NCBI GenBank assembly: GCA_032718475.1
Contig: JAUCBJ010009124.1
Coordinates: 1-64,000 of the forward strand
DNA: 64,000 bases
Source: Nemertoderma westbladi
Lineage: Eukaryota > Animalia > Xenacoelomorpha
Direction: 5' to 3'
Shown here in pieces: positions 50-57,584 of this stretch. Each line of letters opens with the position of its first letter. The stretch's first letter is position 1. Position numbers and translations under genes: made by a program. The notes beneath the pieces were generated by a model. That model was not told where the DNA came from. It saw only the letters and a program-made list of their open reading frames with translations, and searched no databases.

Positions 50-104
50 CACATACAAGTATGTAACTATTATAGTTATTAATTCATTGGATCGTGTTAC
101 TTAG

Positions 105-512
105 GTAACGAAGTCGGTGTACGTGATCTCTCAGTTCTCGGAACCGTTCCGTGTGGTCCCGTCTGACCCTCTCGCCGACACCAACCAGGTCGCCGCCACA
201 GACGCTCCCGACTCCAACCAACCCCATCTCTTCTGGATCGCCGGGGTAGCAGCCGGTGTCGTCTTCGTTATCGTCGCCGTCCTCGTTGTTATCTTCTGCT
301 TCCGTAAGCGCTCGCTACCCACCATGCCGGACCACAAGGCCTACACGCCGTTACCGCTGCAGCAGCACTCCAACGACCCGGTGGAACTACGGAGGATCAA
401 CTACCAGACGGCCGCTATGCTCGCCAACCCGCCGGTTTCCCTCCTCGAGTTCGGTAGCCATGTAAACCGATTGAAACACAACGAAAACGCAAAGTTTTCT
501 CAGGAATACGAG
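105..512 (+). CDS. Lar: LAR-family receptor PTP exon: juxtamembrane, TM helix and start of D1 wedge
   Basis: ttag|GTAACG...TACGAG|gtgag. Encodes the hydrophobic segment LFWIAGVAAGVVFVIVAVLVVIFCF, then DPVELRRINYQT and AKFSQEYE, both characteristic of LAR/PTPRD. Confidence 0.9.
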
Positions 513-1135
513 GTGAGGATTTCGGTTTTTAATATCTATAACAATATATGTTGATTCTCTTTATATCAACCGACCATAAACCGGATGTGTTAGTTGTATA
601 AAACCATTAATTTACCAGTTCGGAGGAGGAATTTATTCGCTATTATATTTAATACACCGTCGCTCCCCCCACCAAAAATGTATTTTTCTTTGTATTTAAT
701 ATGTTTAACCGAGTAACCGCGTATATTTGGTTTAATGTCGGAGGTTATGTATCACTTTATCTTTAGGGTGACAACTTTATACTTACGGTCAGACAGTAAA
801 TACCTTTAATCGTCTGATGTAGGTAGCTTACTCCCCGATGCAGTGCACTTAATATCATCAAGCAACCTGTTTAACCTTAGTAGTTCCCTTTTCTGCTATT
901 CTACCCTCCGAGCAGTTTCATTCTCTCAGTAAACTAAATCACAATCTCAGTGACTAATACAGTGGCCTTTATACGGTATTGGGACTACTGGATCGAGATG
1001 GGACACTAAGTTGGCTGCTGAATCCATGTGGCTATGTGGGGTGTCATTCTGATAATATCTTTAGCAAATATTTCCCTTGGTTAAATTGGAAATACAATAA
1101 ATAAATGAATTTTTATAAATTTCTATAATTTACAG

Positions 1136-1262
1136 TCGATTGACCCCGGCCAACAGTTTACTTGGGAACACAGCAACAAAGAAATAAACCGAGCGAGGAA
1201 TCGTTACGGCAATGTTATAGCATACGATCATTCCCGAGTCGTTCTACATGATAACGAAACAG
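1136..1262 (+). CDS. Lar: LAR-family PTP exon (D1)
   Basis: tacag|TCGATT...ACAG|gtggg; [14 protein letters not shown]...[14 protein letters not shown]. Confidence 0.93.
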
Positions 1263-1494
1263 GTGGGTTATAACCAAAACACTAAACTACTAGTAGCGTA
1301 AGTCCTATAAGTATATTTTAAAATTATTTTAAAGATTATTTTAAAGACAGTTATAGAGAAATTGTGAAATAAAACTGGTTGTAGAATTCGAGATAATTTA
1401 GAGAAACTCTGTTTACATCGTAACTTTTCTGTATGAAAAGTCCTGTCGTTGCCGTTCTTTGACTGGGACCGTATAACGATGAGTTTCTTCCCAG

Positions 1495-1658
1495 GAGATT
1501 ACATCAACGCGAATTATTTGGACGGCTATAAGAAACCCAACGCTTATATCGCAACCCAAGGTCCGTTGCCTGAGACATTCGGAGACTTCTGGGCGATGGT
1601 TTGGGAGCAGAAATCTCGAGTTATTGTAATGATGACTCGATTGGAGGAGAGGGGACGG
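1495..1658 (+). CDS. Lar: LAR-family PTP exon (D1)
   Basis: ccag|GAGAT...CGG|gttag; [11 protein letters not shown]...YIATQGP...FWAMVWEQ. Confidence 0.93.
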
Positions 1659-1991
1659 GTTAGTCGTTTATTTATCTTCTTTGATAAAGTTTAAAATAAA
1701 GTAGCTCTTAAACTCTGTAGTTCTGAGCGAAGTTCTTTAACAATATACTTTGCAGTAATAATTTATTCCGCTCTTCTGATATTAGAATATTTTATGTGAA
1801 TGTAATTCAACGCCGCAATTTTCGACTTTTTGACATTTTAGATATTTTTTATATTTTATTATTTGACTATTTAGATTTTCTGTCTGTTGATTGTTTATAT
1901 AACAATAATATAGTGTTTGTGAACAAAATAAAATAATACCGGTACTTACTCATGCAATTAATCCTTAAATTTCTTATTTTTAATGTTTCAG

Positions 1992-2135
1992 GTGAAATGC
2001 GACCATTATTGGCCGATGCGATTGGGTACCTGCCAAGTCTATGGCGGAGTTTCTGTAACCCTTATGGAAATTCTAGAATTATCGTCTTACACAATACGTG
2101 TATTATCTATTAGTAAGGACAATAGTAAGCGAGAG
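1992..2135 (+). CDS. Lar: LAR-family PTP exon (D1)
   Basis: ttcag|GTGAAATGC...GAG|gtgag; VKCDHYWP motif. Confidence 0.92.
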
Positions 2136-2300
2136 GTGAGCACACCTTCCCACCTAACTGAACTATAATTATAAATAGAATGATTTAAAGGTTACAAATC
2201 TCACAGTAACCTATAACTTTGAAACAATTAACTTGTTGAAGAGTTTTATTGTATTAATTACCCAAGACCATCTCAATAATAACCAACACCGTTTACATAG

Positions 2301-2431
2301 GTGAAACAGTTCCAGTTCACATCGTGGCCGGACCACGGGGTACCTGACTACCCGACCACAGTGTTGGCCTTCGCGAGACGCGTGCGGGGTTGTATACCGG
2401 TGGAAGATGGACCAATGGTAGTCCATTGTAG
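2301..2431 (+). CDS. Lar: LAR-family PTP exon (D1 WPD loop to VHC)
   Basis: atag|GTG...TGTAG|gttag; [13 protein letters not shown]...GPMVVHC(S). Confidence 0.93.
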
Positions 2432-2966
2432 GTTAGTGTTTATCTCGTTACCTAGCAACCTATTGTATACCGGTGGAAGATGGACCAATGGTAGTCCATT
2501 GTAGGTTAGTGTTTATCTCGTTACCTAGCAACCTATTGTATACCGGTGGAAGATGGACCAATGGTAGTCCATTGTAGGTTAGTGTTTATCTCGTTACCTA
2601 GCAACCTGTTGTATACCGGTGGAAGATGGACCAATGGTAGTCCATTGTAGGTTAGTGTTTATCTCGTTACCTAGCAAAGCAACCTATTGTATACCGGTGG
2701 AAGATGGACCAATGGTAGTCCATTGTAGGTTAGTGTTTATCTCGTTACCTAGCAACCTATTGTATACCGGTGGAAGATGGACCAATGGTAGTCCATTGTA
2801 GGTTAGTGTTTATCTCGTTACCTAGCAACCTATTGTATACCGGTGGAAGATGGACCAATGGTAGTCCATTGTAGGTTAGTGTTTATCTCGTTACCTAGCA
2901 ACCTATTGTATACCGGTGGAAGATGGACCAATGGTAGTCCATTGTAGGTTAGTGTTTATCTCGTTA
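2391..2966 (+). repeat. 73-bp minisatellite (~8 copies) made of the last 41 nt of the exon plus the splice donor
   Basis: Unit tgtataccggtggaagatggaccaatggtagtccattgtag|gttagtgtttatctcgttacctagcaacctat starts at 2391, 2464, 2537, 2610, 2688, 2761, 2834 and 2907. Confidence 0.95.
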
Positions 2967-3050
2967 GAAATTTTCTTAGTGGACTTTACTAATACGCCTT
3001 TTTATTTCATTAAATTTATGTAACTAAAGTTATACTTTATTTACTTTTAG

Positions 3051-3180
3051 CGCTGGCGTCGGCCGTACTGGTTGTTTTGTTGTCATCGACGCGATGTTGG
3101 AACGAATTAAACACGAGAAGACGGTCGACATTTACGGTCACGTGACCTGCCTTCGCGCGCGTAGGAACTACATGGTTCAG
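3051..3180 (+). CDS. Lar: LAR-family PTP exon (D1 P-loop)
   Basis: tttag|CGCTGGC...CAG|gttag. Completes [10 protein letters not shown] and ends at RNYMVQ. Confidence 0.93.
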
Positions 3181-3292
3181 GTTAGTTGGGTTCAAACAGC
3201 TGACAATCCCCGCCGACCAATAAAGCACCACAATAATCTCATTGACATTCTTGTTTATCATGTTAATTAATTTATTTGCACTGGTTGTACCC

Positions 3293-3503
3293 CCGATCCC
3301 CGCCTAGGGGCCAAGGCAGCCTTTAAAGGGACAACCAGGGCGCATCTCTGTCTTGCATCCTTAGCTAAATGAGTTCTGGAGTTTCTTATGGGGACTATAG
3401 TTCTAGGGGGGGGGGGGGGGGGGTGCTGGAAATAAGTCTTCAGACTTTGTGCGTAATCCGTGGCCTAACGGCTGAAGAAAACTTTACTTTATTTACTTTA
3501 CTT
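3293..3503 (+). mobile_element. Short 5'-truncated retroposon (SINE/LINE 3' end)
   Basis: Flanked by the direct repeat ttgtaccc (3285-3292 and 3504-3511); ends in an (ACTTT)n-like tail; internal poly-G run. Confidence 0.6.
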
Positions 3504-3768
3504 TTGTACCCATAAGCTGCACTAACCATTTACATCCAAAAGTGTTTTTTTGTGCACAAAATCTTTGCAGATTCTACCATAAGGGTCAATAAAGTAACGC
3601 TGTTTACGTTTACGGTTTTTTGCTTTAAAAATTTGTGAAAATTTCGAAAAATTCAAAATATTATTGTTACAAACCCGCTGATTGATATATTATATTGCCC
3701 CTCTTCGTATAAAAATACTACAGACTTTCGTGTTATACTTAATTCTGATTGGCTGATTTGTTCGGTAG

Positions 3769-4018
3769 ACCGAGGAGCAGTACGTGTTCATCCACGACGC
3801 GGTACTGGAGGCGGTTTACTGCGGCGTCACCGAAGTCCCAGCGCGGTCGCTCTACAACCATCTACAGCAGCTCAACATCGTCCCACCCGGGGATACAACC
3901 TCCCAACTCGAGTCAGAGTTTCGGAGACTCGCTAACTCGAAGGCTCTGCCCAGTCGGTTCGTGGGCGCTAATCTACCCGCAAACCGCTTCAAGAACAGAC
4001 TCGTTAATATTCTTCCAT
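3769..4018 (+). CDS. Lar: LAR-family PTP exon (D1 end, linker, D2 start)
   Basis: gtag|ACCGAG...CCAT|gtgag; [15 protein letters not shown]...TEVPAR...KNRLVNILP. Confidence 0.93.
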
Positions 4019-4396
4019 GTGAGTAACTCAGTTAGTAATAACGCACCTAAGGGAGGCTTTATCAGGGGGCCAACTTAAACATTCGACAGTTGCAGTAAAT
4101 TAATATGCAATGGGTTCTCTTTTCAGGTGAAGTTCTTTAGGGCTTTAGTTACTTTTCATCTTATTCACTAATATGTACAAATATTTTAAAAAAGATAATT
4201 TTGAAATTAATATCTTGGAATTTTTAAGGCAAATTTTGTTGAAAATTGTTGGAATTGTAATTAAGTTTCACTCCCGAGATTTTAAAACAAAATGTAAATT
4301 ATCTTTAGCAATAAAAAATTTTAGAATTTTATATAAAAAGTAAAACTTAAATTAAGTTTCGTAGTTAATTAACTCCAATTAATAATTGTTGTTTAG

Positions 4397-4608
4397 TTGA
4401 GTCGACTAGAGTTCTCCTCCAACCGATTCGGGGTTCCGATGGTTCGGATTACATCAACGCGAGTTACATCGACGGCTATCGACTCAAGAAGAACTTTATA
4501 GCGACGCAGGGGCCTCTAGCGGAGACTACTGACGATTACTGGAGGATGGTGTGGGAACACAACTCCAGTATCCTAGTGATGCTAACCAAACTGAGGGAGA
4601 TGGCTCGG
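4397..4608 (+). CDS. Lar: LAR-family PTP exon (D2)
   Basis: tttag|TTGAG...CGG|gtaag; ESTRV...[13 protein letters not shown]...IATQGP...WRMVWEHNS. Confidence 0.93.
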
Positions 4609-4735
4609 GTAAGTTCTACAGTTATTGGCGAAACAAGCTATTTTTGTGGCGGTGAACGTGAATTCCTTGTCTTAATGAGATTAAACGATTTTCTCATTCA
4701 TTATTACAGAATTTTAATGTTATTTTCTATTGTAG

Positions 4736-4861
4736 GAGAAATGTCACCAATATTGGCCAATGGAGAAAGCGACGCAGTGCCAATATATTGTGGTGGACCC
4801 GTTACATGAATACCAGATGCCGCAATACATAGTCAGGGAATTCAAGTTAACAGATACAAGA
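4736..4861 (+). CDS. Lar: LAR-family PTP exon (D2)
   Basis: gtag|GAGAAA...AGA|gtaag; EKCHQYWP...YIVVDP...[15 protein letters not shown]. Confidence 0.92.
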
Positions 4862-4943
4862 GTAAGTTAAAGTAAAGTTCACATACTGGCAAGAGTTGGC
4901 TGGTAGATTCTTTCATGTATTCTATTTGGTAAATTATAACCAA

Positions 4944-6543
4944 CGCAGTAACAATGAGTGACAACGTCGCAGTGACAATGAGTGACAACGTCGCAGTGAT
5001 AATGAGTGACAACGTCGCAGTGATAATGAGTGACAACGTCGCAGTGACAATGAGTGACAAAGTCGCAGTGACAATGAGTGACAACGTCGCAGTGATAATG
5101 AGTGACAACGTCGCAGTGACAATGAGTGATAACGTCGCAGTGACAATGAGTGACAACGTCGCAGTGACAATGAGTGACAACGTCGCAGTGATAATGAGTG
5201 ACAACGTCGCAGTGGTAATGAGTGACAACGTCGCAGTGGTAATGAGTGACAACTTCGCAGTGACAATGAGTGATAACGTCGCAGTGACAATGAGTGACAA
5301 CGTCGCAGTGACAATGAGTGACAACGTCGCAGTGATAATGAGTGATAACGTCGTAGTGACAATGAGTGACAACGTCGCAGTGACAATGAGTGATAACGTC
5401 GCAGTGACAATGAGTGACAACGTCGCAGTGACAATGAGTGACAACGTCGCAGTGATAATGAGTGATAACGTCGTAGTGACAATGAGTGACAACGTCGCAG
5501 TTACAATGAGTGACAACGTCGTAGTGACAATGAGTGATAACGTCGCAGTGACAATGAGTGATAACGTCGCAGTGACAATGAGTGACAACGTCGCAGTGAC
5601 AATGAGTGACAACGTCGCAGTGATAATGAGTGACAACGTCGCAGTGGTAATGAGTGACAACGTCGCAGTGGTAATGAGTGACAACTTCGCAGTGACAATG
5701 AGTGATAACGTCGCAGTGACAATGAGTGACAACGTCGCAGTGACAATGAGTGACAACGTCGCAGTGATAATGAGTGATAACGTCGTAGTGACAATGAGTG
5801 ACAACGTCGCAGTGACAATGAGTGATAACGTCGCAGTGACAATGAGTGACAACGTCGCAGTGACAATGAGTGACAACGTCGCAGTGATAATGAGTGATAA
5901 CGTCGTAGTGACAATGAGTGACAACGTCGCAGTGACAATGAGTGACAACGTCGTAGTGACAATGAGTGATAACGTCGCAGTGACAATGAGTGATAACGTC
6001 GCAGTGACAATGAGTGACAACGTCGCAGTGACAATGAGTGACAACGTCGCAGTGATAATGAGTGACAACGTCGCAGTGGTAATGAGTGACAACGTCGCAG
6101 TGGTAATGAGTGACAACTTCGCAGTGACAATGAGTGATAACGTCGCAGTGACAATGAGTGACAACGTCGCAGTGACAATGAGTGACAACGTCGCAGTGAT
6201 AATGAGTGATAACGTCGTAGTGACAATGAGTGACAACGTCGCAGTGACAATGAGTGACAACGTCGTAGTGACAATGAGTGACAACTTCGCAGTGACAATG
6301 AGTGATAACGTCGCAGTGACAATGAGTGACAACGTCGCAGTGACAATGAGTGACAACGTCGCAGTGACAATGAGTGACAACGTCGTAGTGACAATGAGTG
6401 ACAACTTCGCAGTGACAATGAGTGATAACGTCGCAGTGACAATGAGTGACAACGTCGCAGTGACAATGAGTGACAACGTCGCAGTGATAATGAGTGACAA
6501 CGTCGCAGTGGTAATGAGTGACAACGTCGCAGTGGTAATGAGT
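4944..6543. repeat. Intronic 24-bp minisatellite with a 432-bp higher-order repeat
   Basis: Unit gtgacaatgagtgacaacgtcgca, ~66 copies; the variant agtggt recurs at 5211, 5643, 6075 and 6507. Confidence 0.95.
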
Positions 6544-6765
6544 TCCGAAAAGCTAGAAGGACAATAGACCTCATTCTGACAGGATAATTGATAAGTTATT
6601 TACAAGGGAATAGAGTCGCTTGGCTCATCTTCTTTGTATTGTAGACTACTCCGAGCGCGTGTGTTAGAGGTGGTTGAGGTGCCCAACTCACTGCCTATTA
6701 CGTCACACATTATGTCTACATTTAACCACACAAACAGATTGGAGGAGATTGACATTAGTGCCAAT

Positions 6766-8285
6766 GAGACGTTAGTGCCGGCGAGACGTTGGTGCCCGCG
6801 AGACGTTAGTGTCCTCGAGACGTTAGTGCCCGCGAGACTTTAGTGCCCGCGAGACGTTTGTGGCCGCGAGACGTTTTGCCCGCGAGACGTTAGTGCCCGC
6901 GAGACGTTAGTGTCCGCGAGAAGTTAGTGCCCGCGAGACTTTAGTGCCCGCGAGACGTTAGTGCCCGCGAGACGTTTTGCCCGCGAGACGTTAGTGCCCG
7001 CGAGACGTTAGTGCCAGCGAGACGTTAGTGTCCGCGAGACGTTAGTGCCCGCGAGACGTAGTGCCCGCGAGACGTTAGTGTCCTCGAGACGTAGTGCCCG
7101 CGAGACGTTAGTGCCCGCGAGACGTTAGTGCCCGCGAGATGTTAGTGCCAGCGAGACGTTAGTGCCCGCGAGACGTTAGTGTCCTCGAGACGTAGTGCCC
7201 GCGAGACGTTAGTGCCAGCGAGACGTTAGTGTCCTCGAGACGTAGTGCCCGCGAGACGTTAGTGCCAGCGAGACGTTAGTGCCCGCGAGACGTTAGTGTC
7301 CTCGAGACGTAGTGCCCGCGAGACGTTAGTGTCCTCGAGACGTTAGTGCCCGCGAGACGTTAGTGCCCGCGAGACGTTAGTGTCCGCGAGACGTTAGTGT
7401 CCTCAAGACGTAGTGCCCGCGAGACGTTAGTGCCAGCGAGACGTTAGTGCCCGCGAGACGTTAGTGTCCTCGAGACGTAGTGCCCGCGAGACGTTAGTGT
7501 CCTCGAGACGTTAGTGCCTGCGAGACGTTAGTGCCCGCGAGACGTTAGTATCCTCGAGACGTAGTGCCAGCGAGACGTTAGTGCCAGCGAGACGTTAGTG
7601 TCCTCGAGACGTAGTGCCCGCGAGACGTTAGTGCCAGCGAGACGTTAGTGCCCGCGAGACGTTAGTGTCCTCGAGACGTAGTGCCCGCGAGACGTTAGTG
7701 TCCTCGAGACGTTAGTGCCCGCGAGACGTTAGTGCCCGCGAGACGTTAGTGTCCGCGAGACGTTAGTGTCCTCAAGACGTAGTGCCCGCGAGACGTTAGT
7801 GCCAGCGAGACGTTAGTGCCCGCGAGACGTTAGTGTCCTCGAGACGTTAGTGCCCGCGAGACGTTAGTGCCCGCGAGACGTTAGTATCCTCGAGACGTAG
7901 TGCCAGCGAGACGTTAGTGCCCGCGAGACGTTAGTGTCCTCGAGACGTAGTGCCCGCGAGACGTTAGTGTCCTCGAGACGTAGTGACCGCGAGACGTTAG
8001 TGTCCTCGAGACGTAGTGCCCGCGAGACGTTAGTGTCTTCGAGACGTTAGTGCCCGCGAGACGTTAGTGCCCGCGAGACGTTAGTGCCCGCGAGACGTTA
8101 GTGCCCGCGAGACGTTAGTGTCCTCGAGACGTAGTGCCAGCGAGACGTTAGTGCCCGCGAGACGTTAGTGTCCTCGAGACGTAGTGACCGCGAGACGTTA
8201 GTGTCCTCGAGACGTAGTACCCGCGAGACGTTAGTGCCCGCGAGACGTTAGTGCCCGCGAGACTTTAGTGCCCGCGAGACGTTAT
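6766..8285. repeat. Intronic 16-17-bp minisatellite
   Basis: Unit gttagtgcccgcgagac with gtcctcgagac and gccagcgagac variants; ends ~50 bp before the next acceptor. Confidence 0.95.
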
Positions 8286-8336
8286 GCCCCCCTCCCAAGA
8301 CCCACAAACACACGTTATTGTTTTTACGTGTTTCAG

Positions 8337-8491
8337 GATGGCCAAACTCGCACGGTTAGACAGTTCCATTATATCGACTGGCCGGAACAAGGGGTTCCGA
8401 AAGTGGTCGATCAGTTTCTAGATTTTATTAACCAAGTTCATAAAACCAAAGAACAGTTCGGTTGTGACGGTCCCATTACAGTTCATTGCAG
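8337..8491 (+). CDS. Lar: LAR-family PTP exon (D2 WPE loop to VHC)
   Basis: ttcag|GATGGC...GCAG|gttag; DWPEQGVP...[18 protein letters not shown](S), the LAR D2 signature. Confidence 0.94.
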
Positions 8492-11489: not shown

Positions 11490-11987
11490 ACTGTTAAATT
11501 ATTAATTGGTTAAGGAGCAGGTAACATTTATTCTAACCAAAACAATAAACGAAAGTCAATAGTACAGGTTTTTTTGGGAGTAATCAGACTTGTGCCGTAC
11601 TGCCGCATAATTCAGAAAGTATGACATCCAGAAACTGAAACAATTTGTCATGTATACCGCACAACTGCAGCTGGGGAATTGAACTGATTGAAATATTACA
11701 CACAAGTAATATGTCACTTTCGTTTAAAAATAATAAATGCGTCATTATAAAAATAACATGTACTCCGGCAGGTATTGCATTATACCACGCATGGAAGTAT
11801 ATTATAGTAAATATATTCACTGAATTGAGTAGGTAATATTGTTGTCATGATTTTCCTAAAAGTGGCCAAATTCTACCGGTTCATATGCAAAATCGATACG
11901 ATTTTTTAACTTTTCCCTCACTATTATTCTAATGGGAACAGCCCCGGTTTCAAGTCGAAAAATAAAAATAAAACGACATATCATTCT

Positions 11988-12111
11988 ATTTAAATAAAGA
12001 TCCTGTGTTTCACTTTCAGGCTCTAGTTTCTTATTTTCCCTTCGCTACACTCGTTCATGGAAATATTCCCACTCGAGCCGGCGTGAAATACAGTGTTTCT
12101 TTATTTAAATC
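11988..12111. mobile_element. Small MITE-like element, copy 1
   Basis: Terminal inverted repeats atttaaataaaga...tctttatttaaat; its reverse complement aligns to 36844-36971. Confidence 0.55.
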
Positions 12112-12307
12112 TAATATAGTTAATATATATTCCACACAATTTGTGTGTTTTGATTTAATTTAACTGGTTTTATTGGCACTACTGTTAGAGAAAGAGGAAC
12201 TTTCTTCAGGATAAAGATTTGGAACTAATTTCTTTAATATAATTCATAACATCGTGGTAGGCCGTATCGAACGACTCACCAATATTTACTTTCATTTTAT
12301 ATTGCAG

Positions 12308-12443
12308 CGCCGGGGTTGGTCGAACTGGAGTTTTTATTGCATTGAGTATAATTATAGAGCGAATACAATTAGAAGGTCTAGTTGATATCTTCCAAGTTGT
12401 AAAACTTCTGAGAACACAGCGGCCAGCTATGGTACAAACCGAG
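12308..12443 (+). CDS. Lar: LAR-family PTP exon (D2 P-loop to MVQTE)
   Basis: tgcag|CGCCGGG...ACCGAG|gtagg; [46 protein letters not shown]. Confidence 0.94.
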
Positions 12444-15400
12444 GTAGGTTGGCCAAACTGGGGTAAGTTGGTACAAACTGGGGTAGGTTGGTACAAACTG
12501 AGGTAGGTTGGTACAAACCGAGGTAGGTTTGTACAAACCGAGGTAGGTTGGTACAAACCGAGGTAGGTTGTTACAAACTGAGGTAGGTTGGTACAAACCG
12601 TGTAGGTTGGTACAAACCGAGGTAAGTTGGTACAAACCGAGGTAGGTTTGTACAAACCGAGGTAGGTTGGTACAAACTGATTGTAGGTTAGTACAAACTG
12701 GGGTAGGTTGGTACAAACCGAGGTAGGTTGGTACAAACTGGGGTAGGTTGGTACAAACTGGGGTAGGTTGGTACAAACTGATTGTAGGTTAGTACAAACC
12801 GAGATAGGTTGTTACAAACCGAGGTAGGTTGGTACAAACTGGGGTAGGTTGGTACAAACCGAGGTAGGTTGGTACAAACCGAGGTAGGTTGTTACAAACC
12901 GAGTAGGTTGGTACAAACCGAGGTAGGTTGGTACAAACTGGGGTAGGTTGGTACAAACTGATTGTAGGTTAGTACAAACCGAGATAGGTTGTTACAAACC
13001 GAGGTAGGTTGGTACAAACTGGGGTAGGTTGGTACAAACCGAGGTAGGTTGGTACAAACCGAGGTAGGTTGGTACAAACCGAGGTAGGTTGGTACAAACC
13101 GAGGTAGGTTGGTACAAACCGAGGTAGGTTGGTACAAACCGAGGTAGGTTGGTACAAACCGTGTAGGTTGGTACAAACCGAGGTAGGTTGGTACAAACCG
13201 TGTAGGTTGGTACAAACCGAGGTAGGTTGGTACAAACTGAGGTAGGTTGGTACAAACCGAGGTAGGCTGGTACAAACCGAGGTAGGTTGGTATAAACCGA
13301 GGTAGGTTGGTACAAACCGAGGTAGGTTGGTACAAACTGGGGTAGGTTGGTACAAACCGAGGTAGGTTGGTACAAACCGTGTAGGTTGGTACAAACGGAG
13401 GTAGGTTGGTACAAACCGAGGTAGGTTGTTACTAACCGAGGTAGGTTGGTACACACCGAGGTACGTTGGTACAAACCGAGGTAGGTTGGTACAAACCGAG
13501 GTAGGTTGGTATAAACTGGGGTAGGTTGGTACAAACCGAGATAGGTTGGTACAAACCGAGGTAGGTTGTTACAAACTGAGGTAGGTTGGTACAAACCGAG
13601 GTAGGTTTGTACAAACCGAGGTAGGTTGGTACAAACCGAGGTAGGTTGTTACAAACTGAGGTAGGTTGGTACAAACCGTGTAGGTTGGTACAAACCGAGG
13701 TAGGTTGGTACAAACCGAGGTAGGTTGGTACAAACTGGGGTAGGTTGGTACAAACTGATTGTAGGTTGGTACAAACCGAGGTAGGTTGGTACAAACTGGG
13801 GTAGGTTTGTACAAACCGAGGTAGGTTGGTACAAACTGGGGTAGGTTGGTACAAACTGATTGTAGGTTGGTACAAACCGAGGTAGGTTGGTACAAACTGG
13901 GGTAGGTTTGTACAAACCGAGTAGGTTGGTACAAACCGAGGTAGGTTTGTACAAACCGAGGTAGGTTGGTACAAACTGGGGTAGGTTGGTACAAACTGAT
14001 TGTAGGTTGGTACAAACCGAGGTAGGTTGGTACAAACTGGGGTAGGTTTGTACAAACCGAGGTAGGTTGTTACAAACCGAGGTAGGTTGGTACAAACCGA
14101 GGTAGGTTGTTACAAACCGAGTAGGTTGGTAAAAACCGAGGTAGGTTGGTACAAACCGAGGTAGGTTGGTACAAACTGCGGTAGGTTGGTACAAACCGAG
14201 GTAGGTTGGTACAAACTGAGGTAGGTTGGTACAAACTGGGGTAGGTTGGTACAAACCGAGGTAGGTTGGTACAAACCGTGTAGGTTGGTACAAACCGAGG
14301 TAGGTTGGTACAAACTGATTGTAGGTTGGTACAAACTGGGGTAGGTTGGTACAAACCGAGGTAGGTTGGTACAAACCGAGGTAGGTTGGTACAAACTGGG
14401 GTAGGTTGGTACAAACTGATTGTAGGTTGGTACAAACCGAGGTAGGTTGGTACAAACTGGGGTAGGTTTGTACAAACCGAGGTAGGTTGGTACAAACTGG
14501 GGTAGGTTGGTACAAACCGAGGTAGGTTGGTACAAACCGTGTAGGTTGGTACAAACCGAGGTAGGTTGGTACAAACTGATTGTAGGTTGGTACAAACTGG
14601 GGTAGGTTGGTACAAACCGAGGTAGGTTTGTACAAACCGAGGTAGGTTGTTACAAACCGAGTAGGTTGGTACAAACCGAGGTAGGTTTGTACAAACCGAG
14701 GTAGGTTGGTACAAACCGAGGTAGGTTGTTACAAACCGAGTAGGTTGGTACAAACCGAGGTAGGTTGTTACAAACCGAGTAGGTTGGTACAAACCGAGGT
14801 AGGTTGTTACAAACCGAGTAGGTTGGTACAAACCGAGGTAGGTTGTTACAAACCGAGTAGGTTGGTATAAACCGAGGTAGGTTGGTACAAACTGGGGTAG
14901 GTTGGTACAAACCGAGGTAGGTTGGTACAAACCGTGTAGGTTGGTACAAACCGAGGTAGGTTGGTACAAACTGATTGTAGGTTGGTACAAACTGGGGTAG
15001 GTTGGTACAAACCGAGGTAGGTTGGTACAAACCGAGGTAGGTTGGTACAAACCGAGGTAGGTTGGTACAAACCGAGGTAGGTTGGTACAAACCGAGGTAG
15101 GTTGGTACAAACCGAGGTAGGTTGGTACAAACTGGGGTAGGTTGGTACAAACCGAGGTAGGTTGGTACAAACCGAGGTAGGTTGGTACAACCCGAGGTAG
15201 GTTAGTTCAAACCGAGGTAGGTTGGTACAAACCGAGGTAGGTTGGTACAAACCGAGGTAGGTTGTTACAAACCGAGGTAGGTTGGTACAAACTGGGGTAG
15301 GTTGGTACAAACCGAGGTAGGTTGGTACAAACCGAGTAGGTTGTTACAAACCGAGGTAGGTTGGTACAAACCGAGGTAGGTTGTTACAAACCGAGGTAGG

Positions 15401-18400
15401 TTGGTACAAACTGGGGTAGGTTGGTACAAACCGAGGTAGGTTGGTACAAACCGAGTAGGTTGTTACAAACCGAGGTAGGTTGGTACAATCTGGGGTAGGT
15501 TGGTACAAACCGAGGTAGGTTGGTACAAACCGAGGTAGGTTGGTACAAACCGAGGTAGGTTGGTACAAACCGAGGTAGGTTGGTACAAACTGGGGTAGGT
15601 TTGTACAAACCGAGTAGGTTGGTACAAACCGAGGTAGGTTTGTACAAACCGAGGTAGGTTGGTACAAACTGGGGTAGGTTGGTACAAACTGATTGTAGGT
15701 TGGTACAAACCGAGGTAGGTTGGTACAAACTGGGGTAGGTTTGTACAAACCGAGGTAGGTTGTTACAAACCGAGTAGGTTGGTACAAACCGAGGTAGGTT
15801 GTTACAAACCGAGTAGGTTGGTAAAAACCGAGGTAGGTTGGTACAAACCGAGGTAGGTTGGTACAAACTGCGGTAGGTTGGTACAAACCGAGGTAGGTTG
15901 GTACAAACTGAGGTAGGTTGGTACAAACTGGGGTAGGTTGGTACAAACCGAGGTAGGTTGGTACAAACCGAGGTAGGTTGGTACAAACTGATTGTAGGTT
16001 GGTACAAACTGGGGTAGGTTGGTACAAACCGAGGTAGGTTGGTACAAACCGAGGTAGGTTGGTACAAACCGAGGTAGGTTGGTACAAACCGAGGTAGGTT
16101 GGTACAAACCGAGGTAGGTTGGTACAAACCGAGGTAGGTTGGTACAAACTGGGGTAGGTTGGTACAAACCGAGGTAGGTTGGTACAAACCGAGGTAGGTT
16201 GGTACAACCCGAGGTAGGTTAGTTCAAACCGAGGTAGGTTGGTACAAACCGAGGTAGGTTGGTACAAACCGAGGTAGGTTGGTACAAACCGAGGTAGGTT
16301 GGTACAAACCGAGGTAGGTTGTTACAAACCGAGGTAGGTTGGTACAAACTGGGGTAGGTTGGTACAAACCGAGGTAGGTTGGTACAAACCGAGTAGGTTG
16401 TTACAAACCGAGGTAGGTTGGTACAAACCGAGGTAGGTTGTTACAAACCGAGGTAGGTTGGTACAAACTGGGGTAGGTTGGTACAAACCGAGGTAGGTTG
16501 GTACAAACCGAGTAGGTTGTTACAAACCGAGGTAGGTTGGTACAATCTGGGGTAGGTTGGTACAAACCGAGGTAGGTTGGTACAAACCGAGGTAGGTTGG
16601 TACAAACCGAGGTAGGTTGGTACAAACCGAGGTAGGTTGGTACAAACCGAGGTAGGTTGGTACAAACTGGGGTAGGTTGGTACAAACCGAGGTAGGTTGG
16701 TACAAACCGAGGTAGGTTGGTACAAACCGAGGTAGGTTGGTACAACCCGAGGTAGGTTAGTACAAACCGAGGTAGTTTGGTACAAACCGAGGTAGGTTGG
16801 TACAAACCGAGGTAGGTTGGTACAAACCGAGGTAGGTTGGTACAAACCGAGGTAGGTTGTTACAAACCGAGTAGGTTGGTACAAACCGAGGTAGGTTTGT
16901 ACAAACCGAGGTAGGTTGGTACAAACTGGGGTAGGTTGGTACAAACTGATTGTAGGTTGGTACAAACCGAGGTAGGTTGGTACAAACTGGGGTAGATTTG
17001 TACAAACCGAGGTAGGTTGTTACAAACCGAGTAGGTTGGTACAAACCGAGGTAGGTTGTTACAAACCGAGTAGGTTGTTACAAACCGAGTAGGTTAGTAC
17101 AAACCGAGGTAGGTTGGTACAAACCGAGGTAGGTTGGTATAAACCGAGGTAGGTTGGTACAAACCGAGGTAGGTTGGTACAAACTGGGGTAGGTTGGTAC
17201 AAACCGAGGTAGGTTGGTACAAACCGAGGTAGGTTGGTACAAACCGTGTAGGTTGGTACAAACCGAGGTAGGTTGGTACAAACCGTGTAGGTTGGTACAA
17301 ACCGAGGTAGGTTGGTACAAACTGAGGTAGGTTGGTACAAACCGAGGTAGGCTGGTACAAACCGAGGTAGGTTGGTATAAACCGAGGTAGGTTGGTACAA
17401 ACCGAGGTAGGTTGGTACAAACTGGGGTAGGTTGGTACAAACCGAGGTAGGTTGGTACAAACCGAGGTAGGTTGGTACAAACCGTGTAGGTTGGTACAAA
17501 CGGAGGTAGGTTGGTACAAACCGAGGTAGGTTGTTACTAACCGAGGTAGGTTGGTACACACCGAGGTACGTTGGTACAAACCGAGGTAGGTTGGTACAAA
17601 CCGAGGTAGGTTGGTATAAACTGGGGTAGGTTGGTACAAACCGAGGTAGGTTGGTATAAACTGGGGTAGGTTGGTACAAACCGAGGTAGGTTGTTACAAA
17701 CTGAGGTAGGTTGGTACAAACCGAGGTAGGTTGTTACAAACTGAGGTAGGTTGGTACAAACCGAGGTAGGTTTGTACAAACCGAGGTAGGTTGGTACAAA
17801 CCGAGGTAGGTTGTTACAAACCGAGGTAGGTTGGTACAAACCGTGTAGGTTGGTACAAACCGAGGTAGGTTGGTACAAACCGAGGTAGGTTGGTACAAAC
17901 TGGGATAGGTTGGTACAAACTGATTGTAGGTTGGTACAAACCGAGGTAGGTTGGTACAAACTGGGGTAGGTTTGTACAAACCGAGGTAGGTTGTTACAAA
18001 CCGAGTAGGTTGGTACAAACCGAGGTAGGTTTGTACAAACCGAGGTAGGTTGGTACAAACTGGGGTAGGTTGGTACAAACCGAGGTAGGTTGGTACAAAC
18101 CGTGTAGGTTGGTACAAACCGAGGTAGGTTGGTACAAACTGATTGTAGGTTGGTACAAACTGGGGTAGGTTGGTACAAACCGAGGTAGGTTGGTACAAAC
18201 CGAGGTAGGTTGGTACAAACCGAGGTAGGTTGGTACAAACCGAGGTAGGTTGGTACAAACCGAGGTAGGTTGGTACAAACCGAGGTAGGTTGGTACAAAC
18301 CGAGGTAGGTTGGTACAAACTGGGGTAGGTTGGTACAAACCGAGGTAGGTTGGTACAAACCGAGGTAGGTTGGTACAACCCGAGGTAGGTTAGTACAAAC

Positions 18401-21400
18401 CGAGGTAGGTTGGTACAAACCGAGGTAGGTTGGTACAAACCGAGGTAGGTTGGTACAAACTGGGGTAGGTTGGTTCAAACTGGGGTAGGTTGGTACAAAC
18501 CGAGGTAGGTTGGTACAAACCGAGTAGGTTGTTACAAACCGAGGTAGGTTGGTACAATCTGGGTTAGGTTGGTACAAACCGAGGTAGGTTGGTACAAACC
18601 GAGGTAGGTTGGTACAAACCGAGGTAGGTTGGTACAAACCGAGGTAGGTTGGTACAAACCGAGGTAGGTTGGTACAACCCGAGGTAGGTTAGTACAAACC
18701 GAGGTAGGTTGGTACAAACCGAGGTAGGTTGGTACAAACCGAGGTAGGTTGGTACAAACTGGGGTAGGTTGGTACAAACTGGGGTAGGTTGGTACAAACC
18801 GAGGTAGGTTGGTACAAACCGAGTAGGTTGTTACAAACCGAGGTAGGTTGGTACAATCTGGGGTAGGTTGGTACAAACCGAGGTAGGTTGGTACAAACCG
18901 AGGTAGGTTGGTACAAACCGAGGTAGGTTGGTACAAACCGAGGTAGGTTGGTACAAACCGAGGTAGGTTGGTACAAACTGGGGTAGGTTGGTACAAACCG
19001 AGGTAGGTTGGTACAAACCGAGGTAGGTTGGTACAAACCGAGGTAGGTTGGTACAACCCGAGGTAGGTTAGTACAAACCGAGGTAGTTTGGTACAAACCG
19101 AGGTAGGTTGGTACAAACCGAGGTAGGTTGGTACAAACCGAGGTAGGTTGGTACAAACCGAGGTAGGTTGTTACAAACCGAGTAGGTTGGTACAAACCGA
19201 GGTAGGTTTGTACAAACCGAGGTAGGTTGGTACAAACTGGTGTAGGTTGGTACAAACTGATTGTAGGTTGGTACAAACCGAGGTAGGTTGGTACAAACTG
19301 GGGTAGGTTTGTACAAACCGAGGTAGGTTGTTACAAACCGAGTAGGTTGGTACAAACCGAGGTAGGTTGGTACAAACTGAGGTAGGTTTGTACAAACCGA
19401 GGTAGGTTGGTACAAACCGAGGTAGGTTGGTACAAACCGTGTAGGTTGGTACAAACCGAGGTAGGTTGGTACAAACTGATTGTAGGTTGGTACAAACTGG
19501 GGTAGGTTGGTACAAACCGAGGTAGGTTGGTACAAACCGAGATAGGTTGGTACAAACTAAGGTAGGTTGGTACAAACCGAGGTAGGTTGGTACAAACCGA
19601 GTTAGGTTGTTACAAACCGAGTAGGTTGTTACAAACCGAGGTAGGTTGGTACAAACCGAGGTAGGTTGGTACAAACTGGGGTAGGTTGGTACAAACCGAG
19701 GTAGGTTGGTACAAACTGAGGTAGGTTGGTACAAACTGAGGTAGGTTTGTACAAACCGAGGTAGGTTGGTACAAACTGGGGTAGGTTGGTACAAACCGAG
19801 GTAGGTTGGTACAAACCGAGATAGGTTTGTACAAACTGAGGTAGGTTTGTACAAACCGAGGTAGGTTGGTACAAACCGAGGTAGGTTGGTACAAACCGTG
19901 TAGGTTGGTACAAACCGAGGTAGGTTGGTACAAACTGATTGTAGGTTGGTACAAACTGGGGTAGGTTGGTACAAACCGAGGTAGGTTGGTACAAACCGAG
20001 ATAGGTTGGTACAAACTAAGGTAGGTTGGTACAAACCGAGGTAGGTTGGTACAAACCGAGTTAGGTTGTTACAAACCGAGTAGGTTGTTACAAACCGAGG
20101 TAGGTTGGTACAAACCGAGGTAGGTTGGTACAAACTGGGGTAGGTTGGTACAAACCGAGGTAGGTTGGTACAAACTGAGGTAGGTTGGTACAAACTGAGG
20201 TAGGTTGGTATAAACCGAGGTAGGTTGATACAAACGGAGGTAGGTTGGTACAAACCGAGGTAGGCTGGTACAAACCGAGGTAGGTTGGTACAAACCGAGG
20301 TAGGTTGTTACAAACCGAGGTAGGTTGTTACAAACCGAGTAGGTTGTTACAAACCGAGTAGGTTGTTACAAACCGAGTAGGTTGGTATAAACCGAGGTAG
20401 GTTGGTACAAACCGAGGTAGGTTGGTACAAACTGGGGTAGGTTGGTACAAACCGAGGTAGGTTGGTACAAACCGAGGTAGGTTGGTACAAACCGTGTAGG
20501 TTGGTACAAACCGAGGTAGGTTGGTACAAACCGTGTAGGTTGGTACAAACCGAGGTAGGTTGGTACAAACTGAGGTAGGTTGGTACAAACCGAGGTAGGC
20601 TGGTACAAACCGAGGTAGGTTGGTATAAACCGAGGTAGGTTGGTACAAACCGAGGTAGGTTGGTACAAACTGGGGTAGGTTGGTATAAACCGAGGTAGGT
20701 TGGTACAAACCGAGGTAGGTTGGTACAAACCGTGTAGGTTGGTACAAACCGAGGTAGGTTGGTACAAACCGAGGTAGGTTGGTACAAACCGTGTAGGTTG
20801 GTACAAACCGTTTAGGTTGGTACAAACCGAGGTAGGTTGGTACAAACCGAGGTAGGTTTGTACAAACCGAGGTAGGTTGGTATAAACTGGGGTAGGTTGG
20901 TACAAACTGAGGTAGGTTGGTACAAACTGAGGTAGGTTGGTACAAACCGAGGTAGGTTGTTTCAAACTGAGGTAGGTTGGTACAAACCGTGTAGGTTGGT
21001 ACAAACTGAGGTAGGTTGTTACAAACCGAGGTAGGTTGGTACAAACCGAGGTAGGTTGTTACAAACCGAGGTAGGTTGGTACAAACCGAGGTAGGTTGGT
21101 ACAAACCGAGGTAGGCTGGTACAAACCGAGGTAGGTTGGTATAAACCGAGGTAGGTTGGTACAAACCGAGGTAGGTTGGTACAAACTGGGGTAGGTTGGT
21201 ATAAACCGAGGTAGGTTGGTACAAACCGAGGTAGGTTGGTACAAACCGTGTAGGTTGGTACAAACCGAGGTAGGTTGGTACAAACCGAGGTAGGTTGGTA
21301 CAAACCGTGTAGGTTGGTACAAACCGTTTAGGTTGGTACAAACCGAGGTAGGTTGGTACAAACCGAGGTAGGTTTGTACAAACCGAGGTAGGTTGGTATA

Positions 21401-22096
21401 AACTGGGGTAGGTTGGTACAAACTGAGGTAGGTTGGTACAAACCGAGGTAGGTTGGTATAAACCGAGGTAGGTTGGTACAAACCGAGGTAGGTTGGTACA
21501 AACTGGGGTAGGTTGGTATAAACCGAGGTAGGTTGGTACAAACCGAGGTAGGTTGGTACAAACCGTGTAGGTTGGTACAAACCGAGGTAGGTTGGTACAA
21601 ACCGAGGTAGGTTGGTACAAACCGTGTAGGTTGGTACAAACCGTTTAGGTTGGTACAAACCGAGGTAGGTTGGTACAAACCGAGGTAGGTTTGTACAAAC
21701 CGAGGTAGGTTGGTATAAACTGGGGTAGGTTGGTACAAACTGAGGTAGGTTGGTACAAACTGAGGTAGGTTGGTACAAACCGAGGTAGGTTGTTTCAAAC
21801 TGAGGTAGGTTGGTACAAACCGTGTAGGTTGGTACAAACTGAGGTAGGTTGTTACAAACCGAGGTAGGTTGGTACAAACCGAGGTAGGTTGTTACAAACT
21901 GAGGTAGGTTGGTACAAACTGAGGTAGGTTGGTACAAACCGAGGTAGGTTGGTACAAACCGTGTAGGTTGGTACAAACTGAGGTAGGTTGTTACAAACCG
22001 AGGTAGGTTGGTACAAACCGAGGTAGGTTGTTACAAACCGAGGTAGGTTGGTACAAACCGAGGTAGGTTGGTACAAACCGAGGGTAGGTTGGTATA
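12431..22096 (+). repeat. 20-bp minisatellite (~480 copies, 9.7 kb) made of the last 13 exon nt plus the splice donor
   Basis: Unit GGTACAAACCGAG|gtaggtt; the first copy is the real exon/intron junction at 12443/12444. Confidence 0.96.
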
Positions 22097-22180
22097 CTAA
22101 TTATAATACAAAATATACTTTGATAGTTTTTGTGTTTATAATCCTTTAATTATTAACCAGATATATTTGTAAATTTGCAG

Positions 22181-22249
22181 GACCAATACGCGTTGTGTTA
22201 TAAAGCGGCATTGGAATACGTTGGCAGTTACGATCAGTATTTATCCTAG
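22181..22249 (+). CDS. Lar: LAR-family PTP terminal exon
   Basis: tgcag|GACCAA...TAG; DQYALCYKAALEYVGSYDQYLS*, matching the LAR C-terminal pattern. AATAAA follows at ~22332. Confidence 0.93.
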   Translation, partial: DQYALCYKAALEYVGSYDQYLS

Positions 22250-23409
22250 CCGGTGCGAGCCGTGGTTGTTGCTATAGAAACAGGTCATCTTCCAGCTGTT
22301 TAACTGGTTGAGGAATGTGTTGGGTTTATAGAATAAAACCGTTTCCTCTTAGTAATTTAAATTGTTTCGAACATTATTTTGTTTTTCTTGCTTTTAAAGT
22401 TTCTTTTTGTATTGAATTCTGTTTTGTTTATAAAGTTATTAATTGATTTTAAGTGCTTATAAGTATAATAATTAATTATGTTAAATGTATATAAATTATT
22501 TGAATGTTTGTTAAAAAGTAATTATGTTAAGTAATTATTTGTTCGTTAAAAGTTGCACATTTTCTAAAGTTATATTGGGTGCAATGCCTAGTGCGTGCAA
22601 TTAAAGTAGTGCAATGAGTTTATCAAGTCAGTCTTCGAATTGATTGAAAATTAATGTTTTTTTTATACATTATTTACTATTATTGTTATTTTCTAAGCTA
22701 ATTAATTCTAACTTGTGTTGGGGGGTAACCCCTTTTGTTTAATTTATGTTCTGTAATCGTAAACATAATTTATTACAATTCGATCTCAAACACTCATTAT
22801 TATAATTATACCGCATACAAATACAGGCAATATAAAGGCAAATAAAGGGTCGTATGTGTATCAAGTAGAAAAACCGAAAACCGAAAAACTTACTAACTCA
22901 GCTAATTGAGAATTTTCATTTTCCATAAAAATCTGGCGCTATTTAATTATAAAAAAAAGTGAAACAAATCTTACCATGCGACTGCCATGTCAACTGACAG
23001 AGGCAGAAAGAATTTCACGGTTTCAGATGAGTTGGCCCGCTGTTTATTACCGTAACAATCGCTTTAATCTAAATGTAAGGCTATCGACCAACTGTATTCT
23101 ATGTAGAATTTTAATGCTACGGTACCGATATACCTAAAATAGATTATCATATCATTAAAATCAATAGAATACATTCGTCGTATTGATGATAATGTTTCCC
23201 ACCTGAACGAACAAGACTAACCATGTTTCCGTGAATTGGACGAGCGAATAATTATTTCTAACGCCGAAATAAACCTGATAATGTCATTTGTTTATCAGCG
23301 TAGCGATTAATGTCTGTTATTTGGGACATACATTTTTTCATAAATAAAAAATTGCTCAATTCCATTTTTATCTCATCTCATCTGATTTCATTAAATTAAA
23401 TTAAATGTA

Positions 23410-37368: not shown

Positions 37369-37614
37369 CTAAAATAAACAAACGATAATCCACCGTATTT
37401 TATCTGTAGGATTATTTAATTTATTAATCTGTGTGATTAATATGGACTACGTTAACACTTATTTACGTGTAATATGCCGTAAAAATATGGTAAATTCAAT
37501 GCTGGCTAACGGGTAATACTTAACAATGATAAGTTAAATAGTCGGTCTGTTACTTTCAGTATCAATGTATCCTTTTAAATAGGCTCATCCAGACTATCGG
37601 CAGCATAATATGTG

Positions 37615-38267
37615 TTATAACTTTTTGTTGGGCACAGCTTTTGCAAAGTCGGCAATGACGTCCAGGTGGGATCGAACTGGTGACCTCCGGGTTGGAAGTC
37701 TGATGCTCTAAGCATTCAGCTAGTGGCTCAGGCAAAATATAGACCTGAAAATACAATCTGATACCTTGTATGTCCGCAATTTACCTCCTCATGGCCTCCC
37801 ATCTGTCATACCATCATCTGCTGCCACTGTGCTCAACACTACAGTACTTGGCCGTCTATCAATAATAACACCAATAATAAATTATAAATATACCGGTCGC
37901 ATTTCTCTATGGGTGTAACTGTCCTACCTAAATTAGTAGCTAGAGTGTATGATTAATCATTGTGGCCGTGATGGTTCATGGTTAATATACACTACACTTT
38001 CATTGTAGCGAGTGGTTAAAGACGGCCAAGTACTACGGTAGGGTTGTGTACAGTGGCAGCAGATGATGGTATTGGACAGATGGAGGGCCATGATGAGGTA
38101 AATTGCGGACATACTAGCTATCAGATACTATTTCCACGTCTATCTTTTACCTGAGCCGCTAGCTGAATGGTTAGAGCGTCAGGCTTCCAACCCGGAGGTC
38201 ACCAGTTCGATCCCACCTGGACGTCATTGCCGACTTTGCAAAAGCTGTGCCCAACAAAAAGTTATAA
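37615..38267. mobile_element. Foldback element: two ~245-bp inverted arms, each containing a tRNA-like segment
   Basis: Arms 37615-37857 and 38020-38267 are reverse complements and both end in TTATAA. Each carries tagctgaatg(g/c)ttagagc (A-box-like) and gttcgatcc (B-box-like). Confidence 0.85.
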
Positions 38268-38380
38268 TACAGTAATATGAAACCACTCATTCACCCAAAA
38301 CACCAATAATAATATGTGTAATATGCATAATAATTTACTGTATGATTTAGACAATGTGTTTAGTTAACATATTGACTTAC

Positions 38381-38999: not shown

Positions 39000-39250
39000 C
39001 TTTAAGAATTAATTAGTGATAATTAATTAATCAGCAGGGATTAAAGATTAAATAAAATAGTAGAATCCAGAATCTGGGACTACCAATGAATCTATATTAG
39101 GCCTATATATTATCCAACGGACTATACGGTACCAGTACAACAGAGTTACACGTTCGTGGGGCCTTCGCGCAGCACGAGAGCCTTTATTAGAAAGTACATT
39201 ATACTAATCTCTATTAGATATACGAAAACTGTCTTTGAACTTCAATTTCA

Positions 39251-55685: not shown

Positions 55686-55895
55686 CTGGATTTTACACAA
55701 TTAATTATAATATTGATTGTCATATAAAGCGCCTGGAATGACTCTACTGTACTCTATGTCCTACTGTAACAGTCAGTCTGACATGCCATATCAGGTTGGT
55801 GACGCTGACGCTAAGCTAATGTACCTGAAGCACCATGTTGAGCTGACCATCACAGCTACTACTGTAGATGAAGTAAGCCTACTGTGCCACAAGTA

Positions 55896-57287: not shown

Positions 57288-57584
57288 CTAAAGGTAGAAT
57301 AAAAGTTAGTCCTACATTGTTTTACTTTAAAGGCATTACCCAAAGATAATATCTGCCTTGTACCTCTAAATGGTCGCTAAAAGAGTACCAGTTTCCTCTG
57401 GGAAGTAGTGTTTTGGTGATGATCGAACTGGGCATGACAAGATTGGCCTTCACTATGGTGCAATGTCGGTAGTCTCAGAAACAAGGCCGCCCCTAATCAC
57501 TGTCATTGGGTGAACCCCACCGAAAGGTTACAATAATACAAGCTGACTGTTTAAACCATAGCAGTAACTACTATTACGACAGTA

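What the first reader, a model, noticed from the sequence alone, without database searches (positions are those of the whole stretch)
12431..22096. A 9.7-kb intron built almost entirely from ~480 copies of its own 5' splice site
Seen in sequence: the 20-bp unit GGTACAAACCGAG|GTAGGTT is exactly the last 13 nt of the D2 exon (codons of MVQTE) plus the first 7 nt of the intron. The array starts inside the coding exon and fills the intron to within ~85 nt of the acceptor at 22180. The spliceosome therefore faces hundreds of identical donors, plus a GG|GTAAGT variant at 12463. Established knowledge: the MVQTE|DQY intron position is the usual one in LAR-type genes, so the intron is old and the array is derived from it. 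Inference: only the first donor, or an in-frame one at +39, gives an open frame, and a TAG follows soon after. The organism must either select the most 5' donor strictly, splice recursively through the AG|GT repeats, or discard products by NMD. The array could also load U1 snRNP along the intron.
Basis: partly seen in the sequence, partly recalled or inferred. Interest (0 to 1): 0.85.

Follow-up and report, generated by a model that had tools for sequence, protein, structure and literature searches.

The report
Giant splice-donor "mirage" repeat in LAR
The last 13 bases of one exon of an animal's LAR-type phosphatase gene, with its splice signal, are repeated about 485 times through a 9.7-kb intron, yet the one assembled transcript seen (from a run that is likely RNA) is spliced at the first copy, so this is likely a tolerated, oversized case of a repeat type already known from lancelets, chickens and human genes.

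Summary
A 20-bp unit (13 exon nt + 7 intron nt) is repeated 485 times (12430-22094) in the last, 9,737-nt intron of a LAR-type phosphatase gene; 316 sites, the real donor included, carry the identical 9-mer. DNA contigs from a second study cross both array edges; the full length is unverified. One 2,349-nt contig from a run that behaves as RNA joins 12443 directly to 22181, so the first donor is used. NMD cannot explain the silence of the nearest copies, and the AG|GT sites lack pyrimidine tracts, which argues against recursive splicing. A 5-nt repeat at both edges suggests slippage in a ~97-nt ancestral intron. Nine unrelated arrays fill 66% of the window; a second one also spans a donor, which local chance allows (P 0.22-0.25). 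The kind is known: human F7 VNTR, lancelet 'mirages', chicken 'exon stuttering' (1-44 copies). Only the scale is unusual. The scan has noted this before on other DNA, including larger cases in this genome (unchecked). New member of a known kind.

The parts
135..8491 (+). Ten upstream exons of a LAR-type receptor tyrosine phosphatase (transmembrane segment, D1, most of D2): 135-512, 1136-1262, 1495-1658, 1992-2135, 2301-2431, 3051-3180, 3769-4018, 4397-4608, 4736-4861, 8337-8491
   Evidence: The 12-exon model gives 673 aa with one terminal stop, 61-67% identical to PTPRF/D/S-type proteins in the rows printed; Pfam Y_phosphatase in 5 of 7 pieces scanned
2390..2966 (+). Second donor-spanning array in the same gene: 73-bp unit x 7.8, holding the last 41 nt of the D1 catalytic exon and 8 identical donors (2432 to 2948)
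   Evidence: which donor is used was not tested
12308..12443 (+). Penultimate exon (136 nt, D2 domain, ends in the codons for MVQTE)
   Evidence: X4 contig lies on 12301-12444 only
12444..12449 (+). Authentic 5' splice site, used in the one spliced contig
   Evidence: Record position 1756 = 12443 and 1757 = 22181
12430..22094 (+). 20-bp minisatellite, 485 units, 41 variant kinds interspersed, with duplicated blocks; 315 further copies of the exact donor 9-mer
12430..12434 (+). 5-nt direct repeat at the left edge (exonic); same letters at 22090-22094. Inferred seed of the first duplication
   Evidence: sequence; role inferred
12504..12506 (+). First in-frame stop on read-through into the array
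22084..22180 (+). Last donor copy plus the unique, AT-rich intron remainder and acceptor; 97 nt, the inferred size of the ancestral intron
   Evidence: size inferred
22181..22772 (+). Last exon (coding to 22249) and 3' UTR as far as the X4 contig reaches
   Evidence: 22179-22772, no further joint

Best explanation
The array is a locally grown minisatellite made of 485 copies of the gene's own exon end and donor, likely seeded by slippage between two 5-nt repeats in a formerly ~97-nt intron and likely tolerated because the spliceosome takes the first donor after the exon, as the one spliced contig shows. Shown: the anatomy, both DNA junctions, the intact reading frame and the 12443-to-22181 join. 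Inferred: (1) a first 20-nt duplication between the two 5-nt repeats; (2) growth by unequal exchange or conversion, which copied blocks of variant units; (3) donor choice by exon definition or 5'-to-3' co-transcriptional commitment, as shown for human F7; (4) NMD only as a back-up for distal errors; (5) no selected function. The genome appears to amplify arbitrary local sequence, and donor-spanning arrays persist because the exon copy stays first and intact.
For: The X4 contig (2,349 nt, depth 50.2) lies on 12301-12444 at record 1614-1757 and on 22179-22772 at record 1755-2349. Its loose end before 22179 is the exon sequence 12412-12441 with one synonymous change. X4 has no depth on unique intron 12146-12281 or on array units 12452-12500. 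Its word share of 0.32 matches the 0.325 expected for a spliced mRNA. The same 5 letters stand at both array edges, as in the flanking-repeat and incomplete-last-unit models of minisatellite origin (PMC3389668 passages). Substitution kinds are spread evenly: 17 over the 13 exon positions and 7 over the 7 intron positions, so there is no sign that donors are kept or purged. Nine unrelated arrays cover 42,380 of 64,000 bp, and 7 of 9 touch no donor. Precedent with use of the first donor: PMC1557585, PMC3087553, PMC3902484.
Against: The splicing evidence is one contig from one run that is labelled 'DNA?' and that I read as RNA; contigs drop rare forms, so minor use of 12463, 12483 or later donors is not excluded. 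That individual's array was not seen, and it may be shorter than the reference. In human 6-16 and CBS the next two copies are also used. Two of 9 arrays holding a whole donor has P = 0.025-0.032 before allowing for how the window was picked. The 73-bp array shows no such edge repeat. Array length is unverified.
Confidence: 0.8

Rival explanations
1. The array is real and harmless, but its seeding is biased to exon-intron borders by a transcription- or splicing-coupled mutational process in this genome, so junction arrays are more common than random placement predicts.
For: Two of 9 arrays in the window hold a whole donor (P 0.025-0.032 unconditioned). Earlier scan notes list many junction arrays in this genome, some with 3-4 per gene (unchecked and selected for this trait).
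Against: Given that the window was chosen for one such array, a second has P 0.22-0.25. The other 7 arrays have unrelated seeds, one from an interspersed repeat. Coding exons block expansion, so arrays will abut them anyway (PMC12954441).
Confidence: 0.2
2. The pseudo-donors are used at a meaningful rate and tune the gene: +39 inserts 13 residues in D2, +19 and +59 change the C-terminus, distal donors feed NMD, or bound U1 shields the long intron.
For: 333 sites match the consensus as well as the real donor and 3 match better. Human 6-16 and CBS use two extra copies.
Against: No X4 contig extends past 12444 or holds array units, and only one X4 contig enters 22181. Donor positions are no better conserved than exon positions in the unit.
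Confidence: 0.08
3. The intron is removed in steps through the AG|GT sites of the array (recursive splicing).
For: 800 AG|GT sites, 473 of them with TAG.
Against: Pyrimidines at -23..-4 are 6-10 of 20 (mode 7) against 10-15 for the 11 true acceptors as set in that call; only 3 of 800 reach 10, the longest pyrimidine run in the array is 4, and the strand is 63% purine. Mouse recursive sites have a pyrimidine tract and lie in introns over 51 kb (PMC8797253 passages).
Confidence: 0.04
4. A short array is real but the 9.7-kb length is inflated by assembly, or holds only for one haplotype.
For: No record spans the array. Run X2 has a contig with 125 non-array letters before the last unit and far less array depth (76-82, against 1,755-6,399 in X1 and X3).
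Against: 41 unit kinds in a non-periodic order, longest exact repeat 478 nt, no N. X3 depth on the first units is 4,871-6,399 against 23 on flanking DNA (a hint only, since the tool says depth is no copy number).
Confidence: 0.1

Closest known systems
Human F7 intron 7 37-bp VNTR, with 6-16, CBS, LAMIN B2 and PDGF minisatellites (Borensztajn et al. 2006, PMC1557585; abstract, Introduction and Discussion read)
   Same: First unit spans the exon-intron boundary, identical donors are reiterated in the intron, and the most upstream one is used.
   Different: 5-25 or so copies there, 485 here. Here the array fills 99% of the intron and the unit is 20 nt with 13 exonic nt. No minigene test here.
Lancelet 'mirage' minisatellites: Adh3, globins BflGb6/BflGb9, troponin C, PGBD5 (PMC3087553 passages; PMC3902484 one passage)
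   Same: [quoted passage not shown]
   Different: 3 and 6 units reported for BflGb6; here about 80 times more. Length instability is shown there and only hinted at here.
'Exon stuttering' on chicken dot chromosomes (Hron et al. 2026, PMC12954441; abstract, section 7 part 1 of 2 and passages read)
   Same: Introns filled by locally expanded, unrelated motifs; some copy the exon edge with its splice site; exons stay intact.
   Different: 1-44 copies (median 4), spans 112-23,555 bp, imperfect tandems. Here 485 well-ordered copies. Chromosomal context is unknown here.
Satellite-filled giant introns of Drosophila Y-linked genes (PMC6508621; search listing only)
   Same: Intron enlarged by tandem repeats.
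   Different: Megabase scale, against 9.7 kb here; the listing does not say the repeats derive from splice junctions.

Membership tests
Mirage / F7-type / exon-stuttering junction minisatellite | Tandem repeat whose terminal unit spans an exon-intron boundary | tested here: met
   Unit 1 = 12431-12450 across the 12443/12444 junction
Mirage / F7-type / exon-stuttering junction minisatellite | Copies reiterate the splice signal | tested here: met
   316 identical 9-mers, real donor included
Mirage / F7-type / exon-stuttering junction minisatellite | Coding exon left intact | tested here: met
   673-aa open model; 27-residue tail from MVQT as in homologs
Mirage / F7-type / exon-stuttering junction minisatellite | mRNA spliced at the authentic (exon-proximal) site | tested here: met
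   One contig of one run, 12443 joined to 22181; minor forms not visible in contigs
Mirage / F7-type / exon-stuttering junction minisatellite | Local origin, unit unique to the locus | tested here: inconclusive
   Absent elsewhere in the 64-kb window; no whole genome held
Mirage / F7-type / exon-stuttering junction minisatellite | Length polymorphism between alleles | tested here: inconclusive
   Last units differ between the window, X3 and X2; lengths cannot be read from contigs
Recursive-splice-site intron | AG|GT preceded by a polypyrimidine tract | tested here: not met
   3 of 800 sites reach 10 pyrimidines in 20
Recursive-splice-site intron | Saw-tooth cover and exon-to-site junction reads in nascent RNA | not testable with these tools
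   Only contigs were available
LAR-type (PTPRF/D/S) receptor phosphatase gene | Transmembrane segment followed by tandem D1 and D2 domains similar to PTPRF/D/S | tested here: met
   the ectodomain lies outside the window
LAR-type (PTPRF/D/S) receptor phosphatase gene | Conserved intron after MVQTE in D2 | not testable with these tools
   No eukaryotic gene structures on hand; recalled only

The most novel reading that the evidence does not exclude
This animal's genome has a mutational engine that preferentially seeds tandem arrays at exon-intron borders and grows them to hundreds or thousands of copies, 10-50 times the published range, while its spliceosome ignores hundreds of donors as good as the real one. 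That would be a genome-wide natural experiment on 5' splice-site choice and on intron growth from about 100 nt to 10 kb.
Probability: 0.2. Interest if true: 0.6.

Novelty: new member of a known kind. Interest (0 to 1): 0.28.

Why it matters
As a single locus it is an oversized example of a described repeat type. Its value is as a test case. 315 exact copies of the donor, and three better ones, are passed over in the one transcript seen, and the nearest competitors cannot be hidden by NMD because this is the last intron. Deep RNA data would therefore measure directly how strongly position outweighs sequence in 5' splice-site choice, a point tested in F7 with fewer than ten copies. It also shows how a ~100-nt intron can likely grow a hundredfold from its own border.

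Tried and rejected
No whole genome is held, so no genome-wide enrichment test was possible; the local test rests on 9 arrays and 20 donors, and the 9 donors of the minus-strand gene are approximate because none of 8 exon chains tried was stop-free. The run search listed no holder on record as RNA; that blank is no evidence on expression, and I read X4 as RNA from its exon-only cover. X2 gave no cover of 12282-12451, which proves nothing. The non-array letters of the X2 contig were not found in the window. My first exon models had boundary slips, fixed; one of the 11 acceptors was off by one base. Selection on the donor copies: no signal. The homolog search did not place the animal: fish, sea cucumber and priapulid hits were all 63-69% identical. 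Paper searches returned nothing.

Full report
1. Observation. The array is real sequence at the stated place. Tandem Repeats Finder reports 12430-22094, period 20, 485.2 copies, 91% matches. Splitting it unit by unit gives 485 units of 41 kinds (407 of 20 nt, 59 of 19, 19 of 21), and 211 are identical to the unit that straddles the exon end. The exact donor 9-mer occurs 316 times, the real donor included. 333 GT sites match the donor consensus at 7 or more of 9 positions, as the real one does, and three match at 8 (12622, 19562, 20021). So '480 copies of its own splice site' holds for units; about two thirds are exact donor copies. The array has no N, its longest exact internal repeat is 478 nt, variant units are interspersed in duplicated blocks, and the unit is found nowhere else in the window at up to 4 mismatches.

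2. Host gene. Twelve exons from 135 to 22249 give an open frame of 673 aa, 61-67% identical to PTPRF/D/S-type proteins in the rows printed (Pfam Y_phosphatase; homologs). Homologs have the same MVQTEDQY motif with a 27-residue tail, as the model does when 12443 is joined to 22181. Because the exon part of the unit encodes this conserved motif, the array came from the junction and not the reverse. The intron is 9,737 nt and is the last one. That its position is the usual one in LAR genes is recalled and was not tested. The animal was not placed.

3. Independent DNA. Four of six listed runs were laid on the two edges. X3, from another study than the likely source X1, has one contig over 12086-12496 (exon into the first units) and one over 22082-22819 whose loose letters are array units of slightly different kinds. 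Both junctions therefore exist in a second sample. Depth on the first units is 4,871-6,399 in X3 and 1,755-2,594 in X1 against 23-25 on flanks, which is a hint of high copy number only, since the tool says depth is no copy number. Against a uniform picture, X2 shows depth 76-82 there and a 213-nt contig in which 125 non-array letters precede the last partial unit and 50 nt of the intron are replaced by 5. Those letters were not found in the window. This may be another haplotype or a related piece elsewhere. No record spans the array, so its length is unverified.

4. Splicing. Run X4 is labelled 'DNA?' (a guess of the index) but behaves as RNA. It holds 0.32 of the words of 100-4900, where a spliced mRNA predicts 0.325. 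It has depth 50 on the exon and none on the unique intron at 12146-12281. One 2,349-nt contig lies on 12301-12444 (record 1614-1757) and on 22179-22772 (record 1755-2349). Position 12443 is record 1756 and 22181 is record 1757, and the loose end before 22179 is exon sequence 12412-12441 with one synonymous change at 12440. The first donor is used. X4 has no contig on array units (depth 0 at 12452-12500), and only 1 contig enters the last exon. Contigs drop rare forms, and the array of that individual was not seen.

5. How it likely works. Origin: the same five letters stand at 12430-12434 and 22090-22094. Removing all units but the last leaves a 97-nt intron, close to the gene's shorter array-free introns (127-623 nt). 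A first duplication between such short repeats, leaving an incomplete last unit, fits the models summarised in PMC3389668 (passages); growth by unequal exchange is inferred from the block structure. Donor choice: read-through meets a stop at 12504. The donor at +39 would insert 13 residues, those at +19 and +59 would shift the frame with the stop in the last exon, and those at 12523 and 12543 would leave the stop 16 and 36 nt before the last junction. By the 50-55-nt rule (recalled) these five escape NMD, whereas 328 of the 333 strong sites lie far enough downstream to trigger it. The dominance of the first donor over its nearest rivals therefore points to selection at splicing, by exon definition or 5'-to-3' commitment, as shown for F7. 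Recursive splicing is unlikely: the 800 AG|GT sites have 6-10 pyrimidines in 20 nt (3 reach 10) against 10-15 at true acceptors, while mouse recursive sites have a tract and lie in introns over 51 kb (PMC8797253 passages). Substitution kinds fall evenly on the exon and intron parts of the unit (17 over 13 positions, 7 over 7), so there is no sign of selection on the copies.

6. Context and chance. Nine arrays over 500 bp, with unrelated units of 17-73 nt, cover 42,380 of 64,000 bp. One grew from an interspersed repeat. A second array in this gene (2390-2966, 73 nt x 7.8) carries 8 identical donors with exact exon copies, and any of its 7 later donors would give a premature stop over 1,000 nt from the last junction. 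Random placement on the collapsed window gives P = 0.025-0.032 for 2 of 9 arrays holding a whole donor, but 0.22-0.25 for a second once the window is chosen for one. Enrichment is neither shown nor excluded.

7. What is known. Borensztajn et al. (PMC1557585; abstract, Introduction, Discussion) describe the F7 37-bp VNTR and list 6-16 (25 pseudo-sites), CBS (15-20), LAMIN B2 (10-15) and PDGF (16-18). Only the first donor is used in F7, LAMIN B2 and PDGF, and the next two as well in 6-16 and CBS. Lancelet 'mirages' are the same structure with normal mRNA (PMC3087553 passages; PMC3902484 passage). Chicken 'exon stuttering' covers 236 introns in 115 genes with 1-44 copies and spans up to 23.6 kb (PMC12954441; abstract, section 7 part 1, passages). 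The leads to the lancelet and chicken papers came from earlier scan notes, and I read the passages myself. Supplements were not read and may list larger arrays. Searches found no paper on a donor array of hundreds of copies, but the library lacks most subscription papers. Scan notes report 59 similar findings in at least 28 genomes and 17 of 19 notes in this genome fitting the words, with arrays of about 595 and 2,100 donor copies. These are unchecked and selected, and are not counted as evidence.

8. Verdict. The feature is real, its kind is known, and the first donor is used in the one transcript seen. The copy number is about tenfold above the published range I found. New member of a known kind, interest 0.28. 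The bolder reading, junction-biased seeding across this genome, has probability about 0.2 and would merit 0.6.

Noticed in passing
window 2390-2966: Second donor-spanning array in the same gene: 73-nt unit x 7.8 with the last 41 nt of the D1 catalytic exon copied without change and 8 identical donors; donor use not tested.
   Followed up: partly
window 12440: The X4 transcript has a synonymous C-to-T change in the exon that equals the commonest variant in the array (102 of 407 20-nt units). Either exchange between array and exon or a recurrent CpG transition.
   Followed up: no
window 22083-22215 (run X2 contig): Non-array sequence precedes the last partial unit and 50 intron nt are replaced by 5; array depth in X2 is low. 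Possibly a haplotype with a short or interrupted array.
   Followed up: partly
window 29549-60153, minus strand: Polycystin (PKD channel) type gene of about 10 exons, tail to tail with the phosphatase (Pfam hits in 6 of 9 pieces); three of its introns hold large arrays that touch no exon. Exon chain not closed.
   Followed up: partly
window 39250-54814: 15.6-kb array of a 42-nt unit derived from an interspersed repeat that looks tRNA-like by eye (related copies at about 37590-37750 and 38150-38270); contains the window's only N gap (46303-46402).
   Followed up: no
window 4944-6543, 6751-8289, 8849-11489, 23687-28965, 30451-35395, 55895-56463: Six more large arrays with unrelated units (24, 17, 49, 63, 43, 22 nt); tandem repeats make up 66% of the window, much like the 'intron stuttering' described in chicken.
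   Followed up: partly
window about 57570-59800: Degraded sequence that looks by eye like LINE-type reverse transcriptase fragments, inside an intron of the polycystin gene.
   Followed up: no
window 11500-11570 and 11900-12120: High-copy interspersed repeats in the preceding intron (very high contig depth in all four runs).
   Followed up: no
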